DNA of 64,000 bases, taken from a virus. Positions within the stretch are counted from its first letter, which is position 1. The number at the start of each line of letters is the position of its first letter. Both the position numbers and the translations under genes were made by a program. The notes beneath the pieces were generated by a model. It had not been told where the DNA came from. It made no database searches and saw only the letters and a program-made list of their open reading frames with translations. This document shows positions 6,235-21,841 of this stretch, one piece after another. The stretch lies in the IMG/VR virus record IMGVR_UViG_3300050120_000230, positions 150,325-214,324 of that record; one strand, 5' to 3'.

Positions 6235-6521
6235 GGAACAAGTTTCTCGACCGTCCAGATGCCGAGTTCTTCGCCATATGGATCGACACCGATTTCGCCA
6301 CGACACAGCGATGTCCACGCCGTCCCAACCCATCCATTTTCGTATTCGGGCATCCCGGCGCCGCAGAGGCTCAACTGATAGCCGAGATGTTTTTCCAGAG
6401 CGTGGTCGAACGCTGCGGGATCATGCGTCGCATCGTCATCTTCGAACGTGAATTTCTGCTCGCCGTTCAAAAACACAACATACGTCGTCATCGCAAACCC
6501 CATCTCGTGCAACGAATACAT
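6231..6521 (-). CDS. hypothetical protein
   Basis: ORF 6231..6737 trimmed to Met73 (MYSLHEMGF...); the upstream 70 codons are Cys/Arg/Pro-rich and fall in the structured non-coding region. Confidence 0.4.
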   Translation of the reverse strand: MYSLHEMGFAMTTYVVFLNGEQKFTFEDDDATHDPAAFDHALEKHLGYQLSLCGAGMPEYENGWVGTAWTSLCRGEIGVDPYGEELGIWTVEKLVP

Positions 6522-7294
6522 ATCATCAACTGGTTTGGGTGGAAAGGCCGCGAGTGCACTCCGCACCGTTTCGGCAAATCCCGCTACGCATAGCGGGCAG
6601 ACTAGCGGCCGGTCCCAGCCTTTCCCCCAAACCAATTGAGTGGTGAGTGTCGGACGACACAGTCCTGTCGGTCTGCATCCAGATTCCCGAGTCGGGCATT
6701 GCTCCCGAATTCTCCGCGAGGGGGTTATGATACCCAAGCGGTGGTGCTGTTACCCTCGGCGACAACTCAGCGGCCATCCCTCCACCCGTCATCCCTCGAC
6801 CCGAAAGTTGCCGGGATGGCGAATTCGTGGCACCCACTTCGTTGCACAATCAACCCCGGTATGGACTGCCGGGATGTGCACTAAAGGAGGGGGCAAGGCG
6901 CCGCAAGCTGGTCCCCTCTTTTTCTACCGAACTTCAGATGTCCAATCCTACGTGCTCGGCGACAGTTCGAATATTCCGCTACTGGGGGTCCTTTTTCAGG
7001 AGGCAGTCTACCCCCTTACTAAAAGACCCTTTTCGCGAGGACATCCGCTCTCCCCGATCTGCGCTGCGGAGACTAACCCGCCCGCTCTGACCGAAGTGCG
7101 CTACGCCCAAAACCCTTCGTGTGGTTACAAGAACCCCCGGCTCAATACGCTTAGGCTCAGCCCGCATTGGGCCTGCCCCAGCAACCTTCCGGCGTTGAAA
7201 CCGGCGTTTACGCGTCTTCGCTTACCGCACCCCACCACGAGGTGTTTCGGCTAGAGATGGTGGCCCGGAGGCTCATGTAACCACACGCATACTG

Positions 7295-7394
7295 TGCGGG
7301 GACTAGGGCTCGAACCTAGTGTCTTCCCTACCTCACCGAGTGTGGCCACACCCTCGTATAGTAGGACTGCTCTAACCCGCTGAGCTACCCAACA
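7295..7394 (-). ncRNA. tRNA-like element with D-arm, T-arm (CTAGG-TTCGAGC-CCTAG) and a 29-nt palindromic insertion in place of the anticodon loop; acceptor strands do not pair
   Basis: GCTCAGCGGGTTAGAGC D-arm and canonical T-arm found by eye; inserted hairpin contains GTGTGGCCACAC. Confidence 0.4.
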
Positions 7395-7616
7395 AAACCT
7401 TTTCGGACTTACCGGTTCATCACCGCGCCGAGCGTGCCCCGAAGGGCGGAATTGGCACCACGAGGAAGACTTGCACTTCCATACCCTTGTCAACAGCAAG
7501 GCTCATCATATTCCCGCAGATCGTGGCCACGATCTCCGGCTTTTAGATCACCGTGGTATCTCGTGCCCTCTCGGGCATGTTCATGTTGGTAGCCGTTCCC
7601 CGCTAAGGGACAGTCT

Positions 7617-7673
7617 TATTCGTGGTGGGGATCGAACCCACGACCCAAGGCTCTACCGCTGAGCTACACGACC
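7617..7673 (-). ncRNA. anticodon-arm-less mini tRNA-like element (acceptor + D-arm + T-arm, 57 nt)
   Basis: GGTCGTG-TA-GCTCAGCGGTAGAGC-CTTGGGTC-GTGGG-TTCGATC-CCCAC-CACGAAT; only 8 nt between D and T arms. Confidence 0.4.
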
Positions 7674-8467
7674 TACACTACCACACTTTCACTCAGTTCG
7701 CGTGCACGCTCCCCGAGCTAAACCTAGATTGCGTGAACCTCTCAACGATAGAGCGGAAGGATCAGGCCGCTTCATTGCTTCCACGGCCCATACGATCCAA
7801 TCACCACGCAACCAAACCTTCGTGCCCATTCGGGCGAAATCTCCAACCACGCCCTCGCTCTAAGCGAACGACAACGGATCGGCGAGGTGTCATCGCTGTC
7901 TAGCCCACGATGGTCCCCTTCGGATCGCTCACGCTATATTTCAAGACGCAGCGCCGCAACTTTTTGCCCATTCAGGCGAATTGGTGGAGGGACTTCCCTC
8001 TCCAACGAAGCGGCTCGCGCGGGGCCATCTCCAAAGTCGGAGTGTGAAGTTGGGCCTACCCCCTAAGCAATGGCATTTCGGCCACTCAGGTTTATCCCAC
8101 TTTTCCAGCCTAGTCTCGGGTCTAGAAATCCCTACCTTCAGCTTCTCTCGACACTGAGGGCCAGACACTTCCTCCTGAACCCTCGCGAGGGTTAGAGAAT
8201 CTGCGCTGACACTTTTAGCTCGGAATGCTCACGCAATCCCGCCTCAGTAATTCGTGTTGCCTTCCCGAGATCAGAACGCTGGTAAACCGCCGGGCCAAAC
8301 CCTTTGGCTCTTCCAAGGACTTCTGGTTAGCTAATGCCGAACCAGCGCCCCGTTCTCAAGAACAACCTCAATCTACACCGCCCCCGAGAACGGTCAAGCA
8401 ATTTCTTTTGGTTGACCAAAAATCTTTTCGTGGGAGTATTCAATCTATAGTCAGCCGGGAGAACCAT

Positions 8468-8938
8468 GTGCAATACGAGACCCACATCTTCAGCAAGAAT
8501 GAGCCGTGGGCCACCGAATGGCACATCCTCTACTTGACAGCCGCCGACGCGGAGAAGGTGTTTCTCAGCACAAATGAATCCGTGAAAGGCTACCGTCGCA
8601 ACGGTGGCGAATGGGCGCGCGCCAGTCATGATAGCTATCGCTATCTCAGGCGTGAAGTTGATGAATGGGTCCGTGCCAATGCCGGACCCCAAGAAGGTGA
8701 AGTGTGGGAATGCGACCGCTACTACCACGCGGACGAGCCTCTCCCAGCATTGCCGCAACGCGCCGGTCGCCGAGCATGGCTGGATGCCTTCAAATGCTGG
8801 CCAGAAGTCTACGGAAACTACCATCATCACCAGTGGGCGGCCGGATCGCACCTCGACACCGAAAAGAAAGGGATCAGAGCTTTCATTCGGTTCAGAAGCG
8901 AGACGACCGCTGTGCTGTTCAGGACGCTGTTCCTGTAA
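8468..8938 (+). CDS. paralog-family protein (...HQWAAGSHLD...IRAFIRFRSETTAVLFRTLFL)
   Basis: ORF 8225..8938 trimmed to in-frame GTG preceded by GGGAGA; upstream part lies in the structured region. Confidence 0.45.
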   Translation: MQYETHIFSKNEPWATEWHILYLTAADAEKVFLSTNESVKGYRRNGGEWARASHDSYRYLRREVDEWVRANAGPQEGEVWECDRYYHADEPLPALPQRAGRRAWLDAFKCWPEVYGNYHHHQWAAGSHLDTEKKGIRAFIRFRSETTAVLFRTLFL

Positions 8939-8940
8939 AT

Positions 8941-9014
8941 TGGCAGGGGTGGAGAGAATCGAACTCTCGTCTTGGGTTTTGGAGACCCCTACTCTACCAT
9001 TGAGCTACACCCCT
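8941..9014 (-). tRNA. tRNA-Trp (anticodon CCA)
   Basis: manual cloverleaf: AGGGGTG/CACCCCT acceptor, loop CTCCAAA, T-arm GAGAG-TTCGATT-CTCTC, CCA encoded; A1-U72. Confidence 0.75.
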
Positions 9015-9094
9015 ATTAGATAACTTGGGATACCACCGGTTGCAAATCAGGATATATACGTAATACTTACGTATTTCCGGGGGCTATCACGACA

Positions 9095-9364
9095 ATGACT
9101 ACTCCATCTACGATCAACGGCGCCACTGTGACTATTGTCAGGATTGGCAAATCTCTCGTTTCCTTGCAGTCACAAAATCTCGTCACACAACCCGCAAGCG
9201 CCGGGCAGATGTCCTTCCAGATCAATTGCGATTCGAAGCTGCTGATCGCGAACTCGAAGATCACGATTTTCTCTTCGACGTTCGGTGCGAAGATCGACAA
9301 CGTCACCGTCCTCGCCGATCATTTCGGCGCGGGTAGTCACCAGATCACTGGCCACGTCATCTGA
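9095..9364 (+). CDS. small hypothetical protein
   Basis: 89-aa ORF between tRNA genes; weak RBS. Confidence 0.3.
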   Translation: MTTPSTINGATVTIVRIGKSLVSLQSQNLVTQPASAGQMSFQINCDSKLLIANSKITIFSSTFGAKIDNVTVLADHFGAGSHQITGHVI

Positions 9365-9368
9365 ATTG

Positions 9369-9458
9369 AGAATCAGGTGGGACTCGAACCCACGGGGACA
9401 AGCTTCGCTTGTTACGGGGGTAAAAACCCCGCCCTCTCGCCGCTGAGGTGACTGATCC
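9369..9458 (-). tRNA. atypical long tRNA-like gene (90 nt, long variable hairpin ACAAGC-GAA-GCTTGT, anticodon loop TTTTTAC reading TTT); identity uncertain
   Basis: acceptor GGATCAG/CTGATTC, T-arm GTGGG-TTCGAGT-CCCAC, anticodon stem CGGGG/CCCCG; three nt between acceptor and D stem. Confidence 0.45.
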
Positions 9459-9498
9459 ATTTATTGAACATTCGTAGAGATATCAATACTATTGGTTA

Positions 9499-10092
9499 AT
9501 GTTTTGTGAATTTTGTTCTGACTTGATTTCTTCTCGATATGGTTCTGGTCGTTTTTGTTCTTCCAAAAGTGCCAGAGGTTTCAGCACCAAAGCTAGGCGC
9601 GCAGAGATCAATTCCAAGGTCAGCAAGAAATTATCGAATAGACCGTCTGGTCGAACGCTCGATTGCGTGACCATTTCTTTTCTGGCTGACAAACGACGTG
9701 AAAAACTCATGGAACTGCCATGGGAATCAATTGGCCTATACGCCAAAAAATCTCGCGTTCTGGGTGAACAAAATCACCGGTGCAATGGATGCAACCTTGA
9801 TGAATGGCGGGGCCAGCCGTTGGTTTTGGAAATCGAACATAAAGATGGCAATAACCAAAACAACGCCCGAGAAAATCTCGAAGGCTTGTGTCCGAATTGC
9901 CATAGCCAAACGCCAACATGGCGTGGTCGTAACAAGGGTCGATCTAAATCAATCTCAGATCAAGAATTCATCGAACATCTGCAAGCTGCTAGCAGCATTC
10001 ATCGCGCGCTGTTGAGCTTAGGTCTCTCAGCGAAGGGAACGAATTATAACCGTGCGAGAACTCTCATCCAATCACATGGCATTTCTATGTGA
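9499..10092 (+). CDS. HNH endonuclease
   Basis: HNH signature ...CNGCNLDEW...EIEHKDGNNQNNARENLEGLCPNCH; stop abuts tRNA-Lys. Confidence 0.65.
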   Translation: MFCEFCSDLISSRYGSGRFCSSKSARGFSTKARRAEINSKVSKKLSNRPSGRTLDCVTISFLADKRREKLMELPWESIGLYAKKSRVLGEQNHRCNGCNLDEWRGQPLVLEIEHKDGNNQNNARENLEGLCPNCHSQTPTWRGRNKGRSKSISDQEFIEHLQAASSIHRALLSLGLSAKGTNYNRARTLIQSHGISM

Positions 10093-10168
10093 TGGTGAAC
10101 CCCCTCGGATTTGAACCGAGAATCTCCTCCTTAAAAGGGAGTTGCATTAACCGTTATGCTAGGGGTCC
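10093..10168 (-). tRNA. tRNA-Lys (anticodon TTT)
   Basis: GGACCCC acceptor, D GCAT/ATGC, loop CTTTTAA, T-arm CTCGG-TTCAAAT-CCGAG, CCA encoded. Confidence 0.75.
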
Positions 10169-10354
10169 GTTAGAAAGTAGCATTCAGAGGTGAATTCATC
10201 TCGGGATATTCTGTCGCGAGAACAGACCCTTCATATGTTCCCCAGCCAACGAAAGCCAGAACTAAAGCAATGATTGTGGTGCCGAGCGCGATTTTGAATG
10301 TCTTTTGCATAGCAACAATTTATCTCTCTGAGATGTTGCGATGCAATATATTTG

Positions 10355-10438
10355 AGGGCGCGGTGGGACTCGAACCCACGGTGTGCTTACGCAAAAAGAT
10401 TAAGAGTCTTCCCCCTTCGCCGCTCGGGACACGCGCCC
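10355..10438 (-). tRNA. atypical class-II-like tRNA (84 nt; Tyr/Ser-like D-loop GAGCGGCGAA, 15-nt variable arm) whose anticodon loop reads CTCTTAA (CTT); identity uncertain
   Basis: acceptor GGGCGCG/CGCGCCC, T-arm GTGGG-TTCGAGT-CCCAC; anticodon stem AAGA/TCTT. Confidence 0.45.
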
Positions 10439-10442
10439 ATGT

Positions 10443-10517
10443 TGGTGGATCGGGAGAGATTCGAACTCTCGACCTTGGGCTTAAGAGGCCCCTGCACTAC
10501 CGCTGTGCTACCAATCC
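10443..10517 (-). tRNA. tRNA-Lys (anticodon CTT)
   Basis: GGATTGG acceptor, loop CTCTTAA, T-arm GAGAG-TTCGAAT-CTCTC, CCA encoded. Confidence 0.7.
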
Positions 10518-10521
10518 ATTG

Positions 10522-10609
10522 TAGTCCTGCTTGGATTCGAACCAAGATCACGCCCCGATCTGGGACTACGGATTATAAATCCGACGCTCTGCCGTTGAGC
10601 TACAGGACC
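10522..10609 (-). tRNA. atypical long tRNA (88 nt, about 21-nt variable region) with anticodon loop TTTATAA (TAT); Ile-UAU-like or other, uncertain
   Basis: GGTCCTG acceptor, D GCTC-AACGGCA-GAGC, T-arm CTTGG-TTCGAAT-CCAAG. Confidence 0.45.
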
Positions 10610-10667
10610 AAAGGGTCTGCTGTAGCAGCGATATTCGTTTACTCATTTGGTCCTCCTCTTTTTGCTG

Positions 10668-10751
10668 TGCGCTCGGCTGGGCTCGAACCAGCAAGACCTT
10701 CCGGCCGCTCCGTTTTAAGTGGAGTGTGGCTACCAGTTTCACCACGAGCGC
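10668..10751 (-). tRNA. tRNA-Leu (anticodon TAA)
   Basis: class II: 3-bp D stem, loop CTTAAAA, 15-nt variable arm, T-arm GCTGG-TTCGAGC-CCAGC. Confidence 0.7.
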
Positions 10752-10756
10752 ATGAT

Positions 10757-10838
10757 TGGTGCCCCTCCTCGGATTCGAACCGAGATGCTTTCGCGCCAGA
10801 TTTTGAATCTGGTGTGTCTACCGTTCCACCAGAGGGGC
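10757..10838 (-). tRNA. tRNA-Leu (anticodon CAA)
   Basis: loop TTCAAAA, stem CCAGA/TCTGG, 11-nt variable arm (GCGAAAGC), CCA encoded. Confidence 0.75.
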
Positions 10839-10881
10839 ATAGAAACCTGAAGATCACATGGCGTGAACCTCAAGTCCATAT

Positions 10882-10963
10882 TGGTGCGGATGGAGGGAAT
10901 CGAACCCCCACGCTTTCGCAACAGATTCTAAATCTGCCGTGGCTACCGTTACACCACATCCGC
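10882..10963 (-). tRNA. tRNA-Leu (anticodon TAG)
   Basis: loop TTTAGAA, variable TGCGAAAGCGT, T-arm GGGGG-TTCGATT-CCCTC, CCA. Confidence 0.75.
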
Positions 10964-10971
10964 ATTGTAGT

Positions 10972-11058
10972 TGGTGCGAATAGCAGGACTCGAACCTGCA
11001 CGGCCTTTCGGCCACTGACTTCTGAAGCCAGCGCGTCTACCTATTCCGCCATACTCGC
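10972..11058 (-). tRNA. tRNA-Leu (anticodon CAG)
   Basis: D GCGG-AATAGGTAGA-CGCG as in bacterial Leu, loop TTCAGAA, 15-nt variable arm, CCA. Confidence 0.8.
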
Positions 11059-11066
11059 ATTGTATT

Positions 11067-11148
11067 TGGTGCCCAGAACAGGACTCGAACCTGCACGCCG
11101 AAGCAACATCCTCTCAGAATGCCGTGTCTACCGTTTCACCATCTGGGC
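11067..11148 (-). tRNA. tRNA-Leu (anticodon GAG)
   Basis: loop CTGAGAG, variable TGCTTCGGCGT, CCA. Confidence 0.75.
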
Positions 11149-11156
11149 ATTGTAGT

Positions 11157-11232
11157 TGGCACAACCGACTGGGCTCGAACCAGTGGCCTCATCCTTCGGA
11201 GGGATGCGCTCTTCCAACTGAGCTACGGCTGT
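11157..11232 (-). tRNA. tRNA-Arg (anticodon CCG)
   Basis: loop CTCCGAA, stem CATCC/GGATG, A1-U72, CCA. Confidence 0.7.
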
Positions 11233-11244
11233 AAATGATGTGCT

Positions 11245-11321
11245 TGGCAGAGACGACAGGGATCGAACCTGTGACCTCCTGATTCGTAGTCAGGCGCTCG
11301 TTCCGGCTGAGCTACGCCTCT
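11245..11321 (-). tRNA. tRNA-Arg (anticodon ACG)
   Basis: loop CTACGAA, stem CCTGA/TCAGG, T-arm ACAGG-TTCGATC-CCTGT, CCA. Confidence 0.75.
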
Positions 11322-11346
11322 GCAAAGCACATCATCGAAGTGTGTT

Positions 11347-11422
11347 TGGCTGGAACGGAGGGGATCGAACCCACGACCTTCAATTCCGCAAACTGACGCT
11401 CTTCCAACTGAGCTACGTCCCA
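11347..11422 (-). tRNA. tRNA-Arg (anticodon GCG)
   Basis: loop TTGCGGA, stem TCAGT/ATTGA, CCA; T-stem has one U-U mismatch. Confidence 0.65.
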
Positions 11423-16567: not shown

Positions 16568-16642
16568 AGTCTCTTAGCTCAGCGGTAGAGCAGCGTCTTG
16601 ATAAGGCGAAGGTCACTGGTTCAATCCCAGTAGGGACTACCA
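16568..16642 (+). tRNA. tRNA-Ile (anticodon GAT)
   Basis: loop TTGATAA, T-arm ACTGG-TTCAATC-CCAGT, CCA; A1-U72. Confidence 0.75.
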
Positions 16643-16657
16643 AATCGCAGGACTTAC

Positions 16658-16732
16658 GGGCGAATAACTCAGCGGTAGAGTGCCTCTTTCACACGGAGGA
16701 AGCCGGGGGTTCGATCCCCTCTTCGCCCACCA
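16658..16732 (+). tRNA. tRNA-Val (anticodon CAC)
   Basis: GGGCGAA acceptor, loop TTCACAC, T-arm GGGGG-TTCGATC-CCCTC, CCA. Confidence 0.7.
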
Positions 16733-16836
16733 CTACTCGATGAGTGACGTAGCTCATCAAGGTCTTTGACATCGTTGATAGCGTGAAATAACGGCCGCTC
16801 CCGTGATCGGGGGCGGCCGACTAAGAAGAGTTTTGC

Positions 16837-16909
16837 TGAGGATTAGTTCAGTTGGTAGAACGCCACACTCTGAATGTGGATGTCCGAGGTTCGAGTCCTT
16901 GATCCTCAG
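16837..16909 (+). tRNA. tRNA-Gln (anticodon CTG)
   Basis: U1-A72 acceptor TGAGGAT/ATCCTCA, D GTTC/GAAC, loop CTCTGAA; no CCA encoded; flanked by inverted repeat gaagagttttgc/gcaaaactcttc. Confidence 0.7.
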
Positions 16910-16966
16910 CAAAACTCTTCTAGTTTTTTCACAAGCGTCCGTCGCAAGACGGCGCCTGTGAACTAA

Positions 16967-17051
16967 TGGGGAATGGTGTAATGGTAACATCCCTGACTTT
17001 GAATCAGGAGACGAGGAGTTTATGTAGGTTCGAGCCCTACTTCCCCAGCCA
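16967..17051 (+). tRNA. tRNA-Gln (anticodon TTG) with unusually long (15-nt) variable region
   Basis: TGGGGAA/TTCCCCA acceptor, loop CTTTGAA, T-arm GTAGG-TTCGAGC-CCTAC, CCA; variable AGACGAGGAGTTTAT. Confidence 0.55.
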
Positions 17052-17073
17052 TATTTTACGCGATGTGTTTTGG

Positions 17074-17151
17074 TGCGGGATGGTAGCAGTCTGGTAGCTC
17101 GTTAGCCTCATAAGCTAAAGGTCAGCGGTTCAAATCCGCTTCCCGCACCCA
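17074..17151 (+). tRNA. tRNA-Met (anticodon CAT; elongator-type or Ile2-lysidine)
   Basis: fMet-like body (AGTCTGGTA D-loop, CTCATAA loop, T-arm AGCGG-TTCAAAT-CCGCT) but U1-A72 paired; CCA encoded. Confidence 0.7.
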
Positions 17152-17171
17152 AACACATCGCGAACCTTTGA

Positions 17172-17249
17172 CGCGGGAAGGACAAGACAGTTAGTCACTA
17201 GCCTCATAAGCTAGACATCTGGCAGATGCGAGCACTGCTCCCGCACCCA
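17172..17249 (+). pseudogene. degenerate duplicate of the tRNA-Met gene (tRNA pseudogene)
   Basis: shares the TAGC-CTCATAA-GCTA anticodon arm and TCCCGCACCCAAAC 3-prime end with the upstream tRNA-Met but lacks D and T arms; C1xA72 mismatch. Confidence 0.5.
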
Positions 17250-17324
17250 AACTTGGCACGGTGATGAACCGGTAAGTCCACAGAGTTATTGACTTGGTGC
17301 TACGAAAATCCGTAGCTGCAAGGT

Positions 17325-17657
17325 ATGAATGATCCACCCAAATTCGTCCGAGCCAGCCGCGAATATCGAGAGCATCTCATCGCTTTCGTTCAGCGGGCAG
17401 TTTGGGCGAGAGGACAGCCGGGTTTCGAGTTCGATGTGATGGGACGAACGTTCCTGATCGCGACCGAGACTGACTACCTTCCGGGTTGGTCAGCCCGGCC
17501 TCTAACTCAACCGGACTTGATCTTCTTCAAAATGTTGTCGCGAGAACGCGATGACAACCACTGGGGCGCCTATTGGCGTCGCGGCAAGGGGATGAAGGTT
17601 TACGGAAACAGCACCGTATTCGAGCGGGACATGCTTTTCCTCAAGTTCGCAGAATAA
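17325..17657 (+). CDS. paralog-family protein (two copies of the motif: DLIFFKMLS and ERDMLFLKFAE)
   Basis: 110-aa ORF between tRNA arrays; family motif at C-terminus. Confidence 0.5.
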   Translation: MNDPPKFVRASREYREHLIAFVQRAVWARGQPGFEFDVMGRTFLIATETDYLPGWSARPLTQPDLIFFKMLSRERDDNHWGAYWRRGKGMKVYGNSTVFERDMLFLKFAE

Positions 17658-17822
17658 GCGAAATATCGTACAACACGAAAAGCGATAAATCGTGCAAGGA
17701 ATCATCGGGATCAGCGTCGGCAGTTCCTCCCCTCGGGGTGTGAAAACGGACCCCCGGTGACTTAGGCTAGAGGGTTGTAGGTGACCTGTATTTGACTGGG
17801 AACCTTCGTCCATGTGTTTTGT

Positions 17823-17899
17823 CAGGGTGTAGCTCAGTCTGGTAGAGTGGCGTCCTCGGATGGCGAGGGTCGCAGGTTCAAATCCTGCCACCCTGACCA
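17823..17899 (+). tRNA. tRNA-Pro (anticodon CGG)
   Basis: C1-G72 acceptor CAGGGTG/CACCCTG typical of Pro, loop CTCGGAT, CCA; flanked by inverted repeat catgtgtttt/aaacacatg. Confidence 0.7.
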
Positions 17900-18071
17900 A
17901 ACACATGGTTCACCAAATGGATGTGCTTTCCGAGAGGCATGTTGTGCATCGTCAAGAACAATCACCGTCCGTAGAGGGACGCCCGAGCGGGTTGCGGAGA
18001 TTGTAGGAGACGATGTGCCAAGCGCGCGAACGGCTGCAAATCGGCATGTCTCGCGGTAAGCACATCCATGA

Positions 18072-18147
18072 TGGATAGTAGCTCAGTTGGTAGAGCTTTC
18101 GGTTGTTACCCGAATGGTCGCAGGTTCGAGCCCTGCCTATCCAGCCA
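18072..18147 (+). tRNA. tRNA-Asn (anticodon GTT)
   Basis: loop TTGTTAC, stem TTCGG/CCGAA, T-arm GCAGG-TTCGAGC-CCTGC, CCA. Confidence 0.7.
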
Positions 18148-18166
18148 AAATGACCTTCGGGTCTGA

Positions 18167-18241
18167 TTGGACGTAGCACAATGGTAGTGCAACTCCCTGT
18201 TAAGGAGAAGGTTGTAGGTTCGAGTCCTACCGTCCGAGCCA
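18167..18241 (+). tRNA. tRNA-Asn (anticodon GTT), second copy
   Basis: loop CTGTTAA, D GCAC/GTGC, T-arm GTAGG-TTCGAGT-CCTAC, CCA. Confidence 0.65.
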
Positions 18242-18331
18242 TTTCTGGGTGGGCTGCAACCCCCAACTTCATCCATCGGGTGAAGAGGTGAGACGCACAA
18301 AGCGCGTCTCTGACAAAGCGCAGCACATCAT

Positions 18332-18407
18332 GGGGCCATAGCTCAGTTGGTAGAGCGATTCCTCGGCAGGGAATAGGTCGCCGGTTCGACTCCGGCTGGC
18401 TCCACCA
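18332..18407 (+). tRNA. tRNA-Ala (anticodon GGC)
   Basis: G3-U70 identity pair (GGGGCCA/TGGCTCC), loop TCGGCAG (C at position 33), CCA. Confidence 0.7.
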
Positions 18408-18605
18408 TTAAAGAAAGCCCCGCTGTTTCCAGCGAGGCTCCCTAGACCGAATCCACCACCGCACCGAAGCGCGGACATCAAAGGTGGACATCGTCACAAG
18501 GGATGTCAAGACCCGCTGTCCAAGGCTTGGACGGCACTCGCTGTCCAAGGCTTGGACAGCACTCCGCACGGTGATGAGCCGATAAGTCGGCAGATTTTGC
18601 CCACC

Positions 18606-18640
18606 AAAAAAGGCCCCGGCGAACCGGGGCCTTGATGGCA
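18606..18640 (-). terminator. rho-independent terminator for the minus-strand gene ending at 18661
   Basis: ggccccggcgaaccggggcc hairpin followed (minus strand) by TTTTTT. Confidence 0.6.
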
Positions 18641-18660
18641 CTGCACCGAAGTGCGGATGC

Positions 18661-18858
18661 TTAGGCGGTTTCGGCGTCCGAGCGGGTCGCGTATTCGGCC
18701 TTCAGGGATTCGAGGATCGACTGCTTGGCGGTGGCGTCGGTGACCGACGTTTCGCCGAGTTCGCGTTCGACCTTGGAAATGGCGTTCTTGATGTGCGGGG
18801 TTGCCATCTTCGACACCGGGGTTTCCGTGGTGCCGGACTTCCAGACTGCTTCAGCCAC
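18661..18858 (-). CDS. small hypothetical protein (65 aa)
   Basis: GTG start with AAGGAGG 7 nt upstream; terminator immediately downstream. Confidence 0.55.
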   Translation of the reverse strand: MAEAVWKSGTTETPVSKMATPHIKNAISKVERELGETSVTDATAKQSILESLKAEYATRSDAETA

Positions 18859-18980
18859 AAGGGCCTCCTTGGTAGGTGGGTGGGAGTGCTAACCGGTTTG
18901 GTTAACGAAAACCATATATCCACCCCTGCGGCGTCATGTCAACAGCACAAAATCGTGCACTGCTCGTTGAGGGAAAACAC

Positions 18981-19054
18981 GGGGTAATAGCTCAATGGTC
19001 GAGCACCGGCTTCGCAAGTCGGGGATCAGGGTTCGATTCCCTGTTACTCCACCA
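18981..19054 (+). tRNA. tRNA-Ala (anticodon CGC)
   Basis: G3-U70 (GGGGTAA/TTACTCC), loop TTCGCAA, T-arm CAGGG-TTCGATT-CCCTG, CCA. Confidence 0.7.
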
Positions 19055-19079
19055 AACATAAATAGTTTCAACTACATAT

Positions 19080-19155
19080 GCTGTCTTAGCTCAGTTGGTA
19101 GAGCGCCGTATTGGTAATGCGGAGGTGGTGGGTTCGATCCCCGCAGTCAGCACCA
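19080..19155 (+). tRNA. tRNA-Thr (anticodon GGT)
   Basis: loop TTGGTAA, stem CCGTA/TGCGG, CCA; one acceptor mismatch. Confidence 0.65.
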
Positions 19156-19158
19156 TTT

Positions 19159-19235
19159 CAGGGTATAGCGCAGCATGGTAGCGCGTCACGTCGGGAACGT
19201 GAAGGTCGCAGGTTCAAATCCTGCTATCCTGACCA
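19159..19235 (+). tRNA. tRNA-Pro (anticodon GGG)
   Basis: C1-G72 acceptor CAGGGTA/TATCCTG, loop TCGGGAA (C33), T-arm GCAGG-TTCAAAT-CCTGC, CCA. Confidence 0.65.
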
Positions 19236-19241
19236 ATTAGG

Positions 19242-19547
19242 TCAATCCATACAGAACGGATTGGCGATGTTCGTCAGCGGCACAGTGTCCAAGATGATCG
19301 GGTTTTTGAAGAACTCGGACGTAAATTGATGCGAACCATTCGGGTTCATATATCGACGAGTTGCGGCCGTTTGGGCTCCCTTGACGGTTTTGAATACGCC
19401 GCTGAACCACATGATTTTATCAGCATCGCGTGGTGAGGTAACGCCGTACTGCCAAACGGTCATACCTTTCGGGTGTTCGATCCCTCTGGCATAGAACTTC
19501 TGCTCAATGGGAGCGTCATTCTCCGTGATGATTTCTCTCATACGCAT
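19242..19547 (-). CDS. hypothetical protein
   Basis: ORF 19242..19658 trimmed to an internal Met because its 5-prime end would overlap tRNA-Pro(TGG). Confidence 0.35.
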   Translation of the reverse strand: MRMREIITENDAPIEQKFYARGIEHPKGMTVWQYGVTSPRDADKIMWFSGVFKTVKGAQTAATRRYMNPNGSHQFTSEFFKNPIILDTVPLTNIANPFCMD

Positions 19548-19580
19548 ATGAATATTTAGGCCGCATGGCCAAACAGACAT

Positions 19581-19657
19581 CGGGGTGTAGCTCAGCTTGA
19601 TAGAGCATCCGGTTTGGGACCGGAGGGTCGGAGGTTTGAGTCCTCTCGCCCCGACCA
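19581..19657 (+). tRNA. tRNA-Pro (anticodon TGG)
   Basis: C1-G72 acceptor CGGGGTG/CGCCCCG, loop TTTGGGA, T-loop TTTGAGT, CCA. Confidence 0.7.
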
Positions 19658-19686
19658 ATTCAGAGACCTTCCCAAAGGGTCTCTAC

Positions 19687-19763
19687 GGTAATGTAGCTCA
19701 GTCAGGTAGAGCAGCGGGCTCATAACTCGCGTGTCGCTGGTTCGATCCCAGCCATTACCACCA
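19687..19763 (+). tRNA. tRNA-Met or tRNA-Ile2 (anticodon CAT)
   Basis: GGTAATG/CATTACC acceptor, loop CTCATAA, T-arm GCTGG-TTCGATC-CCAGC, CCA. Confidence 0.7.
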
Positions 19764-19764
19764 C

Positions 19765-19839
19765 GGACGATTAACTCAGCGGTAGAGTGCCTCTATGACA
19801 TGGAGGAAGCCACTGGTTCGATCCCAGTATCGTCCACCA
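19765..19839 (+). tRNA. tRNA-Val (anticodon GAC)
   Basis: one nt after the preceding tRNA; loop ATGACAT, T-arm ACTGG-TTCGATC-CCAGT, CCA. Confidence 0.7.
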
Positions 19840-19901
19840 ATTTACTTGACGAAACGCCCGTCCATGAGATCATATGTTGATCTTGCAAAGGGAGGGCATC
19901 C

Positions 19902-20177
19902 ATGACGACTGTGAAACTCTCCGAAGCGGAACACAACGCTCTCTCACTTCTGGTTCGCTCGGGCGGCTCGATCCTCACGTCGGCCATTCCCGATAAGAAC
20001 GAGAAGGACGTGTTTGACAACGTCGAGGCAGGCATCAAGGTCTACGTGAAACTTGAGACCCGTGGTCTGGTTGTCGTGACCGAGGAAGAGCCGTTCGAAC
20101 TTGAAGACGGCACCGAGTTCCAGTTCACGAACGAAGTCTACATCACCGACGAAGGTCGGCACGCTATCAACCGCTAA
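19902..20177 (+). CDS. hypothetical protein (91 aa)
   Basis: strong RBS AAGGGAGGG; acidic, protein-like composition. Confidence 0.55.
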   Translation: MTTVKLSEAEHNALSLLVRSGGSILTSAIPDKNEKDVFDNVEAGIKVYVKLETRGLVVVTEEEPFELEDGTEFQFTNEVYITDEGRHAINR

Positions 20178-20240
20178 CAGGCCACATATGGCCTATTAGG
20201 CGCCGGAAACGGTTCTAATAGGCCAACTATGGCCTCTTAT

Positions 20241-20315
20241 GCTTGGGTAGCTCAGGGGTAGAGCAGTGGGCTGAAAATCCGCGTGTCGTTGGTTCGATTC
20301 CAACTCCAAGCACCA
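20241..20315 (+). tRNA. tRNA-Phe (anticodon GAA)
   Basis: loop CTGAAAA, D GCTC-AGGGGTA-GAGC, T-arm GTTGG-TTCGATT-CCAAC, CCA. Confidence 0.75.
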
Positions 20316-20485
20316 TTTTGGTTATTTTGACCGCAAGGTAGATCATACCGCCCGGCCAAAGCAAACCGCCCCACAAAACTTGGCACAGAAATGTGCACAA
20401 GTCGAAGTGGTTGGATTTGATCTCTATGACCTGAAGAAGGCCCCAGAAGATCAATCCAATCAAAGAGTAAACAATCCATGGGCTC

Positions 20486-21616
20486 ATGCCCATATTTAGA
20501 GAGGAACGGTCCCTTGGAGTTTCACGGCTAAGCCCAGAGCGCCTTAATCGGTATCTGGCACTGCAAGATTTGACCGACGCATCGTCGGGCGAACACGCAA
20601 TCAACCTCGTGCTGGACAAGCTGGTAACGGCAATTGAGCAATGGTCGGGCCTCAAGGCAGACATCGTTCGGTCCACTCCTATCGTTTCCGTTCGGGACAA
20701 CTACGACCGGCTCTACTATGAGCCGGACGCGGTCGCACGCTCTGCGCGCTATTCCCACTACGTTGACGATGAGCACATTCTTCGCACCCACACGACGGCG
20801 GCCATTCCCGGCCTGCTGACGGAGACCACGGCCGACCGGCTGATGGTTCTACCGGGTCTTGTCTATCGCCGCGATGTGATGGATCGGATGCATGTGGGAG
20901 AACCGCACCAAGTCGATCTCTGGGTCGCTAGGCGGTCAAGGCTCCGTCGTGATGATCTGTTGAAGATGATCGGCGCGGTTCTCAACGCGATCCTGCCCGG
21001 CTGCGAATACCGCTGCAACGAGACAATCCATCCATACACAGTAAATGGCTTGGAGGTCGAGGTTCGTGTGGACGACCGGTGGATAGAGGTGCTCGAATGT
21101 GGGGAAATCCATCCGTGGCTTTTGAACGACAACGGCTTGCCTAGTCAGGAGTGGTCGGGCTTGGCGATGGGGCTGGGCCTAGACCGCCTTGTAATGCTCC
21201 TGAAGGGCATGGACGACATTCGGCTGCTTCGCAGCACGGATGCTCGTATTGCCCGCCAGATGGCTTCCCTGAGCCCCTACGAGGCTGTTTCGAACCAACC
21301 TATGACCAAGCGGGATATGTCGCTCACGGTGAGTGATCCTGACATCGAATTGATCGGAGATCGCATCCGGGTGGCGCTCGGTGATCGGGCTGACTGGTTG
21401 GAAGAGATCGTGGTCGTTTCGGCATCGAGTTGGGATGAAGTCCCGGCCGTGGCGAGGGAGCGTCTTGGGATGGCGCCTGAGCACACGAACCTGTTGCTGC
21501 GGCTCATCATGCGCTCACCGTCCGAGAGCATTCCGAAAGAGATCGCCAACGAAATCTACGACATAGTCTATGGCGAGCTTCACGAAGGATCGGCGGGGTA
21601 TCAGCGTGTATCATAA
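20486..21616 (+). CDS. pheS: phenylalanyl-tRNA synthetase alpha-subunit (PheS)-like class II aaRS catalytic core
   Basis: motif 2 VLPGLVYRRDVMDRMHVGEPHQVDLWV (cf. [27 protein letters not shown]) and motif 3 SGLAMGLGLDRLVMLLKGMDDIRLL (cf. [25 protein letters not shown]); ILRTHTTAAIPGLL matches LLRTQTSGVQIRTM; lies directly after tRNA-Phe. Confidence 0.75.
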   Translation: MPIFREERSLGVSRLSPERLNRYLALQDLTDASSGEHAINLVLDKLVTAIEQWSGLKADIVRSTPIVSVRDNYDRLYYEPDAVARSARYSHYVDDEHILRTHTTAAIPGLLTETTADRLMVLPGLVYRRDVMDRMHVGEPHQVDLWVARRSRLRRDDLLKMIGAVLNAILPGCEYRCNETIHPYTVNGLEVEVRVDDRWIEVLECGEIHPWLLNDNGLPSQEWSGLAMGLGLDRLVMLLKGMDDIRLLRSTDARIARQMASLSPYEAVSNQPMTKRDMSLTVSDPDIELIGDRIRVALGDRADWLEEIVVVSASSWDEVPAVARERLGMAPEHTNLLLRLIMRSPSESIPKEIANEIYDIVYGELHEGSAGYQRVS

Positions 21617-21766
21617 ACAAGACGGGAAGGCCCTTAATGCATCGTTTATGATGCACTACGGTCGATTTCACAGTCTAGTGCATCAGTTTTGATGCATTAC
21701 GCAATTCGCCAAAAATGACGAGTTATGAACAAAAATAGCCCTAACTCGTCAAAATTGGCGAATTAT

Positions 21767-21841
21767 GTCGATGTAGCTTAGTGGCTAAAGCATCCGGTTG
21801 AAACCCGGAGATCGGCGGTTCGAACCCGCCCATCGGCACCA
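21767..21841 (+). tRNA. tRNA-Phe (anticodon GAA), second copy
   Basis: loop TTGAAAC, stem TCCGG/CCGGA, T-arm GGCGG-TTCGAAC-CCGCC, CCA. Confidence 0.65.

What the first reader, a model, noticed from the sequence alone, without database searches (positions are those of the whole stretch)
7295..7394. tRNA-like module whose anticodon loop is replaced by a 29-nt palindromic hairpin
On the minus strand there is a canonical D-arm (GCTCAGCGGGTTAGAGC) and T-arm (CTAGG-TTCGAGC-CCTAG) plus 3-prime strand TCCCCGC-A. The anticodon stem (CCTAC/GTAGG) instead closes a 29-nt insert containing GTGTGGCCACAC. The 5-prime acceptor strand (TGTTGGG) does not pair with the 3-prime strand. This could be an intron-like insertion, a split or processed tRNA, or a tRNA-derived structural element of the larger RNA.
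Basis: seen in the sequence. Interest (0 to 1): 0.6.

Follow-up and report, generated by a model that had tools for sequence, protein, structure and literature searches.

The report
Anticodon-less tRNA mimic in phage RNA
The flagged sequence is a real, evolutionarily conserved tRNA-shaped RNA module with no anticodon, lying in a roughly 1.8 kb gene-free stretch that carries other conserved RNA folds, next to the tRNA genes of a huge bacteriophage; what it does is unknown.

Summary
On the minus strand at 7394-7295 there is a canonical D-arm, a canonical T-arm and a 3' acceptor strand, and a long hairpin capped by GTGTGGCCACAC stands where the anticodon loop should be. It is not a tRNA gene. Rfam's tRNA model scores it 19.4 bits against a threshold of 29, and ARAGORN finds nothing, even with introns allowed. 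It has no anticodon loop, no encoded CCA, and only 3 acceptor base pairs.

It is not a decaying pseudogene either. Two other huge-phage lineages, one on a 570 kb contig, carry the same element in the same gene-free gap of 1.7-1.9 kb. Its stems are kept there through compensatory changes, including one pair that reads A-U, U-A and C-G in the three lineages. The palindrome and the internal loop UAUA/GUGAG are invariant. The module is more conserved (78-85% nucleotide identity) than the neighbouring protein gene (68-74%).

The gap begins with a conserved promoter-like site. It also holds a second anticodon-less tRNA mimic, enclosed by a covarying helix, and other blocks with covarying folds. No Rfam family other than tRNA matches it. 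I read the module as a tRNA-derived structural or binding branch of an undescribed phage non-coding RNA locus. That function is inferred, not shown. The ARAGORN low-threshold tmRNA call is a false positive.

The parts
7295..7394 (-). Module 2, the finding: a tRNA-like cloverleaf in which a long hairpin replaces the anticodon loop
   Evidence: Rfam tRNA model 19.4 bits, model positions 5-66. Orthologs in L242 and L244 score 133 and 132.6 bits with covariance model R1. RNAalifold independently predicts a cloverleaf.
7369..7385 (-). D-arm GCTC-AGCGGGTTA-GAGC, with A14, R15, G18, G19 and A21 in place
   Evidence: All 4 stem pairs are invariant in the three lineages.
7326..7366 (-). Extended anticodon-like arm: 6-bp stem, internal loop UAUA/GUGAG, 3-bp stem, G bulge, 4-bp stem, GGCC tetraloop
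   Evidence: 3 of the 6 basal pairs change on both sides. The inner pair reads A-U, U-A and C-G in the three lineages by my own reading of the alignment; as aligned by MAFFT, columns 48-62 read G-U, U-A and C-G.
7340..7351 (-). Invariant 12-nt palindrome GTGTGGCCACAC at the tip of the arm
   Evidence: Identical in all three lineages while the stems below it vary.
7303..7319 (-). T-arm CTAGG-TTCGAGC-CCTAG, with T54 T55 C56 R57 A58
7388..7390 (-). GGG, the only part of the 5' acceptor strand that pairs (with UCC at 7302-7300)
   Evidence: The upper four acceptor positions are unpaired in the window and L242. In L244 positions 2-7 pair and only the terminal 1-72 position does not.
7295..7302 (-). 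3' acceptor strand TCCCCGC plus an A at the discriminator position; no CCA follows
   Evidence: Genuine tRNAs of this genome that I read, such as tRNA-Trp at 8941-9014, encode CCA.
7118..7287 (-). Domain C: a 170-nt domain closed by a helix of about 23 bp, always adjacent to module 2 (3' of it here and in L244, 5' of it in L242)
   Evidence: RNAalifold finds 6 pairs changed on both sides.
7403..7432 (-). Block B: a 30-nt stretch identical in L242, lying upstream of the module 2 / domain C unit
7617..7673 (-). Module 1: a second tRNA-like element with no anticodon arm at all. The relatives keep a stub hairpin of 4-5 bp there.
   Evidence: Rfam tRNA 37.3 bits. Two acceptor pairs are compensatory.
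7677..7686 (-). 5' strand of the helix that encloses module 1 and the small hairpin after it
   Evidence: 10-bp helix, 4 pairs changed on both sides. For the whole module 1 domain, 0 of 500 shuffles reach the observed score.
7583..7593 (-). 3' strand of the helix that encloses module 1
7596..7612 (-). Small hairpin UCCC-UUAGC-GGGA. It contains the GCGGGGA that ARAGORN, at a lowered threshold, took for a tmRNA 5' acceptor strand.
7514..7539 (-). Second palindromic hairpin, with the same GTGGCCAC core, inside a stretch absent from L244 where it aligns (about 7564-7433)
7963..8150 (-). Block A: the most conserved block of the gap (80-85% identity)
6544..6952 (-). Block D: the conserved 3' part of the gap (71% identity to L244 over 421 nt)
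8370..8397 (-). Promoter-like site TTGACC-N16-TAGATT at the upstream edge of the gap. Both hexamers and the spacing are conserved in the three lineages while the spacer sequence varies.
   Evidence: scan; (sequences).

Best explanation
Module 2 is a tRNA-derived RNA module that does not decode. It lies in a conserved non-coding stretch of about 1.8 kb (window about 8362-6540, minus strand) beside the tRNA arrays of a clade of huge phages.

Shown here:
- It keeps the nucleotides that build the tRNA L-shape: U8, A14, G18G19, A21, the T-loop TTCRA, and the D and T stems.
- It has no anticodon loop, no complete acceptor stem and no CCA, so I infer that it cannot be charged or read codons.
- In place of the anticodon loop it carries a rod whose base pairs are kept by compensatory change. 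The rod's internal loop (UAUA/GUGAG) and tip (GUGU-GGCC-ACAC) do not vary.
- G-U pairs place the functional strand on the minus strand.

Inferred:
- It works as a tRNA-shaped handle. The D/T-loop elbow would give a docking surface. The rod would present an invariant motif at a fixed distance from it.
- The partner could be in cis (domain C stays adjacent to the module even where their order is swapped) or in trans (a protein or RNA that binds tRNA).
- The identity of the partner and the biological role are unknown.
For: Conservation:
- Three lineages carry the module once each, in the same gene-free gap.
- Module identity is 78-85%, against 68-74% for the adjacent protein-coding gene.

Structure:
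- The stem proposed from the window alone survives in the relatives through changes on both sides.
- All D, T, anticodon-like and apical pairs are 100% paired.
- Sliding the partners by 1-3 columns drops pairing from 91% to 29-51%.
- RNAalifold independently predicts a cloverleaf.

Not protein-coding:
- The module alignment contains 1-nt insertions and deletions.

Not a tRNA gene:
-.

Context:
- There is a conserved promoter-like site upstream.
- The sister module 1 is enclosed by a covarying 10-bp helix. For that domain, 8 pairs change on both sides and 0 of 500 shuffles reach the observed score.
- Block A and domain C have covarying folds.
- The homologous domains in L244 and L242 fold far better than shuffles: z = -3.4 and -5.2.
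- Module 2 and domain C remain neighbours although their order is inverted in L242.
Against: - Only three independent lineages exist, so the statistics for module 2 are modest. The covariation score is reached by 3 of 500 shuffles, but pairs with a change on both sides are reached by 37 of 500.
- There are no expression or end-mapping data.
- A helix enclosing module 2 plus domain C is only weakly supported: 81% paired, one compensatory pair, reached by many shuffles. Whether module 2 stays embedded or is cut out is therefore open.
- The order of modules differs between lineages, which also fits independent units on one transcript.
- The window copy alone shows no thermodynamic signal.
Confidence: 0.6

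Rival explanations
1. Punctuation or a released small RNA. The tRNA-like modules would be processing signals, cut out of the long transcript by RNase P and RNase Z/E. That would free the flanking structured RNAs and yield small tRNA-like RNAs. Known parallels are mascRNA cut from MALAT1 and the tRNA-like/miRNA units of MHV68.
For: - The order of modules differs between lineages, like beads on a string.
- Anticodon-arm-less tRNA-like genes with full acceptor stems are common in viral contigs. Of 90 distinct elements, 57 have a 7-bp acceptor.
- L244 keeps a 6-bp acceptor in module 2.
- The elbow that RNase P recognises is intact.
Against: - Positions 1-4 of the acceptor are unpaired in the window and L242, so there is no canonical RNase P site.
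- Module 1 is enclosed by a covarying helix in a three-way junction, which is the layout of a structural branch.
- No CCA is encoded.
Confidence: 0.2
2. A trans-acting decoy. The module would mimic a tRNA body in order to bind and sequester a host tRNA-binding factor, for example a defence nuclease that targets tRNA or a tRNA-modifying or tRNA-processing enzyme.
For: - The tRNA core is intact but the anticodon loop, a site cleaved by known anticodon nucleases (own knowledge), is absent.
- It lies among phage tRNA genes.
- The window and its relatives carry many tRNAs plus tRNA-related enzyme genes: a PheRS-like gene in the window and peptidyl-tRNA hydrolase in the relatives.
Against: - This is purely inferential, and no partner has been identified.
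- The invariant tip and internal loop of the rod point to a specific contact that ordinary tRNAs do not offer.
- Only one copy exists per genome.
Confidence: 0.12
3. A decaying tRNA pseudogene that happened to pick up a palindromic insertion, with no function.
For: - It scores below the Rfam threshold, the acceptor stem is broken, and there is no anticodon.
- Phage tRNA arrays turn over quickly (own knowledge).
Against: - It is more conserved than the neighbouring coding DNA.
- Substitutions in its stems are compensatory.
- The insert is conserved in position, length and tip sequence in three lineages whose adjacent protein is only 61-65% identical.
Confidence: 0.04
4. A tRNA with an intron, or a split tRNA, that matures into a decoding tRNA.
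For: The insert sits exactly where tRNA introns sit. Many viral tRNA genes with inserts at this place exist.
Against: - ARAGORN with introns allowed finds nothing.
- There is no bulge-helix-bulge. The two unpaired stretches face each other as an internal loop.
- 29 nt is too short for a self-splicing intron.
- No 7-nt loop with U33 and a purine at position 37 can be made from the flanks.
- The acceptor has only 3 bp in two lineages, and no CCA is encoded.
- The distant complementary strand GCGGGGA is not supported in the relatives.
Confidence: 0.02
5. A tmRNA-like gene spanning 7603-7294, as ARAGORN calls it at an 80% threshold.
For: ARAGORN -m -ps80 reports a 5' tRNA domain, a 3' tRNA domain and a tag AGDRGHDLREYDEPCC*. 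GCGGGGA is an exact complement of TCCCCGC.
Against: - There is no call at the default threshold and no Rfam tmRNA hit.
- There is no G3-U70 pair, the tag is unlike known tags, and a full D-arm is present.
- In L244 the same GCGGGGA faces CCCCGGA (4 of 7 pairs). In L242 the hairpin has a different sequence.
- The proposed tag lies in a stretch that is absent from L244 where it aligns.
Confidence: 0.01
6. A DNA-level signal. The invariant 12-bp palindrome would be a binding site for a dimeric DNA-binding protein, with the surrounding tRNA-like sequence incidental.
For: It is a perfect palindrome, invariant in three lineages. A second GTGGCCAC palindrome lies nearby in the window.
Against: - Covariation extends far beyond the palindrome.
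- G-U pairs (U37-G73, U35-G75, G85-U97 in alignment columns) would be A-C mismatches on the other strand, which points to an RNA read from the minus strand.
- The second palindrome is absent from L244 where it aligns.
- TGGCCA is not unusual in this genome for a single site: 27 copies in the window.
Confidence: 0.04

Closest known systems
Canonical tRNA (Rfam RF00005)
   Same: It has the D-arm, the T-arm, U8, A14, G18G19, the T-loop TTCRA, the cloverleaf order of arms and an A at the discriminator position. It clearly derives from a tRNA gene.
   Different: It has no 7-nt anticodon loop, only 3 acceptor pairs here, and no CCA. It scores 19.4 bits, below the threshold of 29, and ARAGORN does not call it. 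Its anticodon arm is roughly 17 stacked layers long instead of 5 bp plus a loop.
GOLLD and ROOL, large ornate RNAs of phages and prophages
   Same: They are large structured non-coding RNAs of unknown function, encoded by phages and often beside tRNA islands (PMC12286853, PMC5737381). That is the same genomic setting as this locus.
   Different: No Rfam match to either family appears at E<=10 in the gap. The sequences and folds are unrelated. Here the tRNA-like elements lie inside the conserved non-coding region, and one of them is enclosed by a covarying helix.
tRNA-like processing modules: mascRNA from MALAT1, and the vtRNA-miRNA units of MHV68 (own knowledge; mascRNA also in bioRxiv 10.64898/2026.01.19.700226)
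   Same: A tRNA-shaped element without decoding function, embedded in a longer non-coding transcript.
   Different: Those are eukaryotic or herpesviral and are cut out by RNase P/Z at a complete acceptor stem. Here the acceptor is incomplete, and the sister module is enclosed by a helix.
YrlA, the bacterial Y RNA-like RNA (RF02553; PMC4201824)
   Same: A bacterial or phage non-coding RNA with a domain that mimics the tRNA D-arm, T-arm and acceptor without decoding.
   Different: YrlA has the opposite topology. Its acceptor end is capped and its RNA ends leave through the anticodon-side stem. Here the anticodon side is capped and the acceptor side is open. No YrlA hit was found in the gap. I did not look for a Ro60 gene.
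tRNA-like domain of tmRNA
   Same: A T-arm and acceptor from a tRNA, joined to a long helix where the anticodon stem would be.
   Different: tmRNA has no D stem, has a complete alanine-accepting acceptor stem with CCA, and carries a tag reading frame. None of these is present or conserved here.
Anticodon-arm-less and insert-bearing tRNA-like genes of viral metagenomes (candidate tRNA-like structures in PMC10690425)
   Same: They are viral, have a class I D-arm and T-arm, and have the anticodon loop missing or replaced.
   Different: None is homologous to module 2: all score 43 bits or less with model R1, against 108-133 bits for the orthologs. Most have a full 7-bp acceptor stem, and only 34 of the 90 share their locus with an ARAGORN-called tRNA.

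Membership tests
tRNA gene (RF00005 / ARAGORN) | Reaches the Rfam gathering score (29 bits) | tested here: not met
   19.4 bits, covering model positions 5-66 only.
tRNA gene (RF00005 / ARAGORN) | 7-nt anticodon loop with U33 and an anticodon | tested here: not met
   A conserved helical insert of 29 nt (28 nt in the relatives) stands in its place, and no 7-nt loop can be derived from it.
tRNA gene (RF00005 / ARAGORN) | 7-bp acceptor stem and a 3' CCA, which other tRNAs of this genome encode | tested here: not met
   3 bp in the window and L242, 6 bp in L244, and no CCA in any of them. tRNAs that I read, such as tRNA-Trp, encode CCA.
tRNA gene (RF00005 / ARAGORN) | D-arm and T-arm with the conserved tertiary nucleotides | tested here: met
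   U8, A14, G18G19, A21 and T54-T55-C56-R57-A58 are present in all three lineages.
Intron-containing tRNA (archaeal or eukaryal bulge-helix-bulge intron, or group I intron) | Detectable as a tRNA once an anticodon-loop intron is allowed, with a bulge-helix-bulge or a group I core | tested here: not met
   ARAGORN -i finds nothing at the default threshold. The insert forms a continuous helix with a symmetric internal loop. No group I hit was found.
tmRNA | Detection by ARAGORN or Rfam, and a conserved long-range acceptor pairing | tested here: not met
   It is called only at -ps80. The pairing is not conserved in L242 or L244. There is no Rfam hit.
GOLLD / ROOL | Match to the family covariance model | tested here: not met
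   No hit at E<=10 in searches of 2 kb or less, nor at E<=5 in L242 and L244.
GOLLD / ROOL | A large structured phage RNA next to a tRNA island | tested here: met
   The conserved gap of 1.7-1.9 kb carries covarying blocks and abuts the tRNA array that starts at 8941.
YrlA / Y RNA | Match to RF02553, with the ends of the RNA leaving through the anticodon-side stem | tested here: not met
   No hit in the gap. The topology is the opposite.
YrlA / Y RNA | A Ro60 (Rsr) gene in the genome | not tested
   I did not scan the window's proteins for a TROVE domain.
RNase P RNA | Match to any Rfam RNase P model | tested here: not met
   My recollected likeness to CR-I (GGGAAGUCC at about 8003-7985) gives only a noise-level hit to RNaseP_arch: 6.8 bits, E=5. 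Wider searches find nothing.
tRNA-like processing signal (mascRNA type) | Cleavage by RNase P/Z at the module's borders | not testable with these tools
   This needs end mapping or an in vitro cleavage assay. The incomplete acceptor stem argues against it.

The most novel reading that the evidence does not exclude
The 1.7-1.9 kb gap would be a previously undescribed class of giant, modular phage non-coding RNA. It would carry two anticodon-less tRNA mimics as built-in branches and display their tRNA elbows. In this reading module 2's invariant rod and the always-adjacent domain C form a unit that either reads the elbow in cis or captures tRNA-binding machinery of the host. It would be a third kind of large phage RNA associated with tRNA islands, besides GOLLD and ROOL.
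Probability: 0.3. Interest if true: 0.8.

Novelty: new variant of a known kind. Interest (0 to 1): 0.6.

Why it matters
Large structured phage RNAs that sit beside tRNA islands, such as GOLLD and ROOL, are known to form striking assemblies, but their function is unknown. This locus shares that setting and has no Rfam match other than tRNA. It adds a feature that can be tested directly: two tRNA mimics that have lost decoding but keep the tRNA elbow, one of them with an invariant rod.

That points to a concrete link between such RNAs and the tRNA machinery, whether RNase P, the ribosome, tRNA enzymes or tRNA-targeting defences. It offers a defined bait of about 100 nt for pull-downs and structure work.

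It also shows that standard tRNA finders miss a sizeable population of anticodon-less tRNA-like genes in viral metagenomes.

Tried and rejected
1. ARAGORN at default settings and with introns allowed found nothing. At -ps80 it gave four implausible 'tRNAs' with introns of 16-651 nt and one tmRNA-like call. I rejected the tmRNA call because the long-range acceptor pairing is not conserved.

2. Rfam found nothing but tRNA in the gap, both at gathering thresholds and at E<=10 on 64 kb, 6.5 kb, 2 kb and two windows of 216 and 336 nt. The RNase P likeness I recalled from memory gave only 6.8 bits.

3. blastn of the island and of the hairpin against 50,697 phage records found no match. tblastn of the neighbouring protein found none either.

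4. Protein-anchored searches of IMG/VR with three flanking proteins found no relatives.

5. Pattern scans for module 2 and block A found nothing in IMG/VR. The metagenome scan only re-found the L244 contig. The genome-contig hit, L248, is a chance match in what reads as a protein-coding frame in a Sphingomonadales bin.

6. I searched the protein database with the spurious ORF that overlaps block A, hoping to catch mis-called ORFs in relatives, and found nothing. The 415-aa neighbour found only itself.

7. The PheRS locus of the huge phage LR745206 has no tRNAs and no related RNA.

8. A long-range pairing of block A (UCCCUCCACC) with block D (GGUGGAGGGA) is perfect here and has a counterpart in L242, but not in L244. 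I left it open.

9. A helix enclosing module 2 plus domain C is only weakly supported.

10. Model R1 found no homolog among 100 viral loci that carry insert-bearing tRNA-likes.

Full report
**Setting.** The window is part of a huge-phage genome. ARAGORN finds 31 tRNA genes in two arrays, 8941-11422 on the minus strand and 16568-21841 on the plus strand. There is a PheRS-alpha-like gene. A UvsW-type helicase is 59.6% identical to that of the 469 kb Sinorhizobium phage Phosso and about 52% identical to those of Agrobacterium and Pseudomonas jumbo phages. The protein database holds the window's own protein on a JGI contig of 415,409 bp. The finding lies in a stretch of roughly 6520-8400 with no convincing reading frame. 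That stretch is G-rich on the minus strand and sits immediately beside the minus-strand tRNA array.

**The observation.**
- D-arm GCTC-AGCGGGTTA-GAGC at 7385-7369
- T-arm CTAGG-TTCGAGC-CCTAG at 7319-7303
- 3' strand TCCCCGC plus A at 7302-7295
- a stem, TCCTAC/GTAGGG, that closes 29 nt containing GTGTGGCCACAC (7351-7340)

Two details need correcting. The 29 nt are not a loop but a continuing irregular helix. The last three G of the 5' strand do pair with UCC. Rfam's tRNA model matches 7390-7300 at only 19.4 bits against a gathering score of 29. It covers model positions 5-66 and skips 35 nt where the model has 9 positions. ARAGORN finds nothing at default settings or with introns allowed. Folding the window copy alone gives no thermodynamic signal (z = +0.22). 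On the window alone, therefore, the element could have been a dead tRNA gene.

**Relatives.** Nucleotide searches of phage records and several protein-anchored searches of IMG/VR failed. A search of the large protein collection with the neighbouring protein (8225-8938, plus strand) found homologs of 61-65% identity. Their contigs are syntenic. One lineage is a 569,661 bp contig of GCA_040384025.1 (L242), together with a Logan contig (L243) whose matches to the window are the same. The other is a JGI, ENA and Logan trio (L244-L246). In every lineage a DUF4326 gene is followed, after a few genes, by a gap of 1.7-1.9 kb without called genes, and then by the homologous gene pair. The gap aligns to the window at 71-85% identity in blocks. 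I could find only these three independent lineages. All further pattern scans and searches were negative or spurious.

**Module 2 is under selection for structure.** The three sequences align over the whole module. The D stem, the T stem, the tertiary nucleotides (U8, A14, G18G19, A21, T54-T55-C56-R57-A58), the internal loop UAUA/GUGAG and the 12-nt palindrome are all invariant.

Three of its six pairs change on both sides and none is broken.

Just below the palindrome a 3-bp stem, CG[A/U/C]...[U/A/G]CG, shows three different Watson-Crick pairs in the three lineages. In MAFFT's columns the window's extra G makes this appear as G-U, U-A and C-G.

All helices except the acceptor are 100% paired. 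Sliding the 3' partners by 1-3 columns drops pairing from 90.7% to 29-51%. RNAalifold independently returns a cloverleaf.

With three sequences the shuffle statistics are modest. The covariation score is reached by 3 of 500 shuffles, and pairs with double changes by 37 of 500.

The module is 78-85% identical between lineages, while the adjacent protein gene is 68-74%. One-nucleotide insertions and deletions in the alignment exclude a protein-coding reading. Several pairs are G-U on the minus strand and would be A-C on the plus strand, so the functional molecule is an RNA read from the minus strand. Covariance model R1 finds exactly one copy per genome at 108-133 bits. Genuine tRNAs score 45 bits or less.

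**What it is not.**
- It is not a working tRNA. Acceptor positions 1-4 are unpaired in the window and in L242, L244 has 6 bp, and no lineage encodes CCA, although tRNAs of this genome that I read do.
- It is not an intron-bearing tRNA. The two unpaired stretches face each other as an internal loop rather than forming a staggered bulge-helix-bulge. 29 nt cannot be a group I intron. No 7-nt loop with U33 can be assembled from the flanks.
- It is not a tmRNA. At an 80% threshold ARAGORN joins GCGGGGA (7602-7596) to the 3' strand and reports a 310-nt tmRNA-like gene. In L244 the same GCGGGGA faces CCCCGGA. In L242 the corresponding hairpin has another sequence. The heptamer is simply one arm of a conserved small hairpin.

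**The surroundings.** The upstream edge of the gap carries TTGACC-N16-TAGATT on the minus strand. Both hexamers and the spacing are conserved in all three lineages while the spacer sequence differs. This is the only promoter-like site inside the gap, and it points into the region.

Downstream lie these elements:
- Block A (8150-7963): 80-85% identity, with a covarying fold.
- Module 1 (7673-7617): a second tRNA-like element that passes the Rfam threshold (37.3 bits) but has no anticodon arm at all.
- Block B (7432-7403): 30 nt, identical in L242.
- Module 2 (7394-7295).
- Domain C (7287-7118): closed by a helix of about 23 bp, with six pairs changed on both sides.
- Block D (6952-6544).

In the relatives, module 1 keeps a stub hairpin of 4-5 bp with a 3-4 nt loop where the window has nothing. 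Its 5-bp acceptor shows two compensatory pairs. The whole element, together with the small hairpin after it, is enclosed by a 10-bp helix with four compensatory pairs. For this domain 98.9% of cells are paired, eight pairs change on both sides, and none of 500 shuffles reaches the observed values. Module 1 is therefore a branch of a three-way junction, not a free-standing gene.

For module 2, a comparable helix that would enclose block B, module 2 and domain C is only weakly supported.

In L242, domain C lies 5' of module 2 instead of 3' of it. The two stay adjacent, but the order of modules in the island is not fixed. The corresponding domains of L244 and L242 fold much better than shuffled sequences (z = -3.4 and -5.2). 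The window segment that includes a stretch absent from L244 does not.

**Mechanism.** Three things are shown. The element is a conserved tRNA-shaped RNA fold on the minus strand. It lacks the features needed for decoding. It has an invariant rod-like arm, and it sits in a conserved non-coding region that has a promoter-like site and other structured domains.

My inference is that the module acts as a structural or binding branch. The preserved D/T-loop elbow is the surface that RNase P, T-box leaders and the ribosome use to recognise tRNA (own knowledge; see also PMC4919913). The rod holds an invariant internal loop and a GGCC-tipped palindrome at a fixed distance from that elbow. The partner could be the adjacent domain C, or a factor in trans.

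The main rival is that the modules are processing signals, cut out by RNase P/Z. The incomplete acceptor stem of module 2 and the helix around module 1 argue against that, but only end mapping can settle it.

**Comparison with known systems.** The setting matches GOLLD and ROOL, which are large structured phage RNAs of unknown function near tRNA islands (PMC12286853, PMC5737381). No Rfam family other than tRNA matches the gap at E<=10. YrlA has the opposite topology. tmRNA and RNase P are excluded by the tests above.

The short-spacer set contains 90 distinct anticodon-arm-less elements. Of these, 57 have perfect 7-bp acceptor stems, and ARAGORN calls only one. None is homologous to module 2. 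tRNA mimics without an anticodon are thus a recurrent viral theme, and this is a new, structurally distinct variant of it.

**Verdict.** The element is a new variant of a known kind (a tRNA mimic within a larger non-coding RNA locus), inside what appears to be an undescribed phage RNA family. The limits are three lineages, no expression data, and a function that is inferred.

Noticed in passing
window 9368-9458(-), 10354-10438(-), 10521-10609(-), 16967-17051(+); also L242 10912-10997, 11398-11491, 12073-12159, 20203-20288 and L244 12177-12270, 13029-13115: These tRNAs carry a long, class II-like variable arm and a Ser/Tyr-like D-arm, but have Lys (UUU, CUU), Ile (UAU) or Gln anticodons, and Trp or Asn in relatives. 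Several sit next to a normal-length tRNA with the same anticodon, and the pairing is conserved across lineages. They may be allo-tRNA-like or miscoding tRNAs (compare PMC5389517).
   Followed up: partly
IMG/VR loci L122-L241: IMG/VR holds a large population of anticodon-arm-less tRNA-like genes of about 55 nt, in which the D-arm is joined to the T-arm by 5-15 nt. Of 90 distinct sequences, 57 have a perfect 7-bp acceptor stem. ARAGORN calls only 1, and only 21 lie within 300 nt of a tRNA.
   Followed up: partly
IMG/VR loci L002-L121, e.g. L045 10272-10343, L051 3854-3927; L002, L025, L087, L092, L094, L108, L112, L116: Other families of viral tRNA-like genes have conserved inserts in the anticodon loop and intact acceptor stems. 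One has a 29-31 nt loop of the form AAA-hairpin-ACCTAA followed by CCA. Another shares CTCATGGTGAAGGRCC. Neither is related to module 2.
   Followed up: no
window 7514-7539: A second near-perfect palindrome, CCGGAGATCGTGGCCACGATCTGCGG, shares the GTGGCCAC core with the tip of module 2. It lies in a stretch of about 130 nt that is absent from L244 where it aligns.
   Followed up: partly
window 8406-8421: The palindrome TTTTGGTCAACCAAAA lies just upstream of the conserved promoter-like site and is conserved in all three lineages. It could be an operator, or a terminator for the convergent gene.
   Followed up: no
L244 9026-9121(-); L242 about 9461-9521(-) and about 8114-8200(-): The relatives' gaps hold further tRNA-like pieces that the window lacks. 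L244 has a 96-nt element with a 7-bp acceptor and CCA, which ARAGORN calls 'Leu-aag'. L242 has a small cloverleaf with an odd T-loop. L242 also has a T-arm followed by CACCGAC-ACCA.
   Followed up: no
L242 gap, about 8439-8501(-), versus L244 gap, about 9485-9547(-): A 63-nt conserved element (GGGATCAG.GTCGGCAGT...GAAAACGGACCCCCGGTGACTTG, 84% identity) sits downstream of module 2 in L242 but directly upstream of block A in L244. It is absent from the window. The modules of the island have been shuffled.
   Followed up: partly
window 7983-7992 with 6777-6786: A perfect 10-nt complementarity links block A (UCCCUCCACC) to block D (GGUGGAGGGA), 1.2 kb apart. L242 has a compensated 8-bp counterpart, and L244 does not. 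It could be a long-range contact that ties the island into one RNA.
   Followed up: partly
window 9499-10092(+): An HNH endonuclease ORF sits inside the minus-strand tRNA array.
   Followed up: no
window 7230-7240 with 7620-7630: An 11-nt perfect complement, UCGUGGUGGGG inside domain C, matches the T-stem and acceptor 3' strand of module 1 (CCCCACCACGA). I did not check it in the relatives.
   Followed up: no
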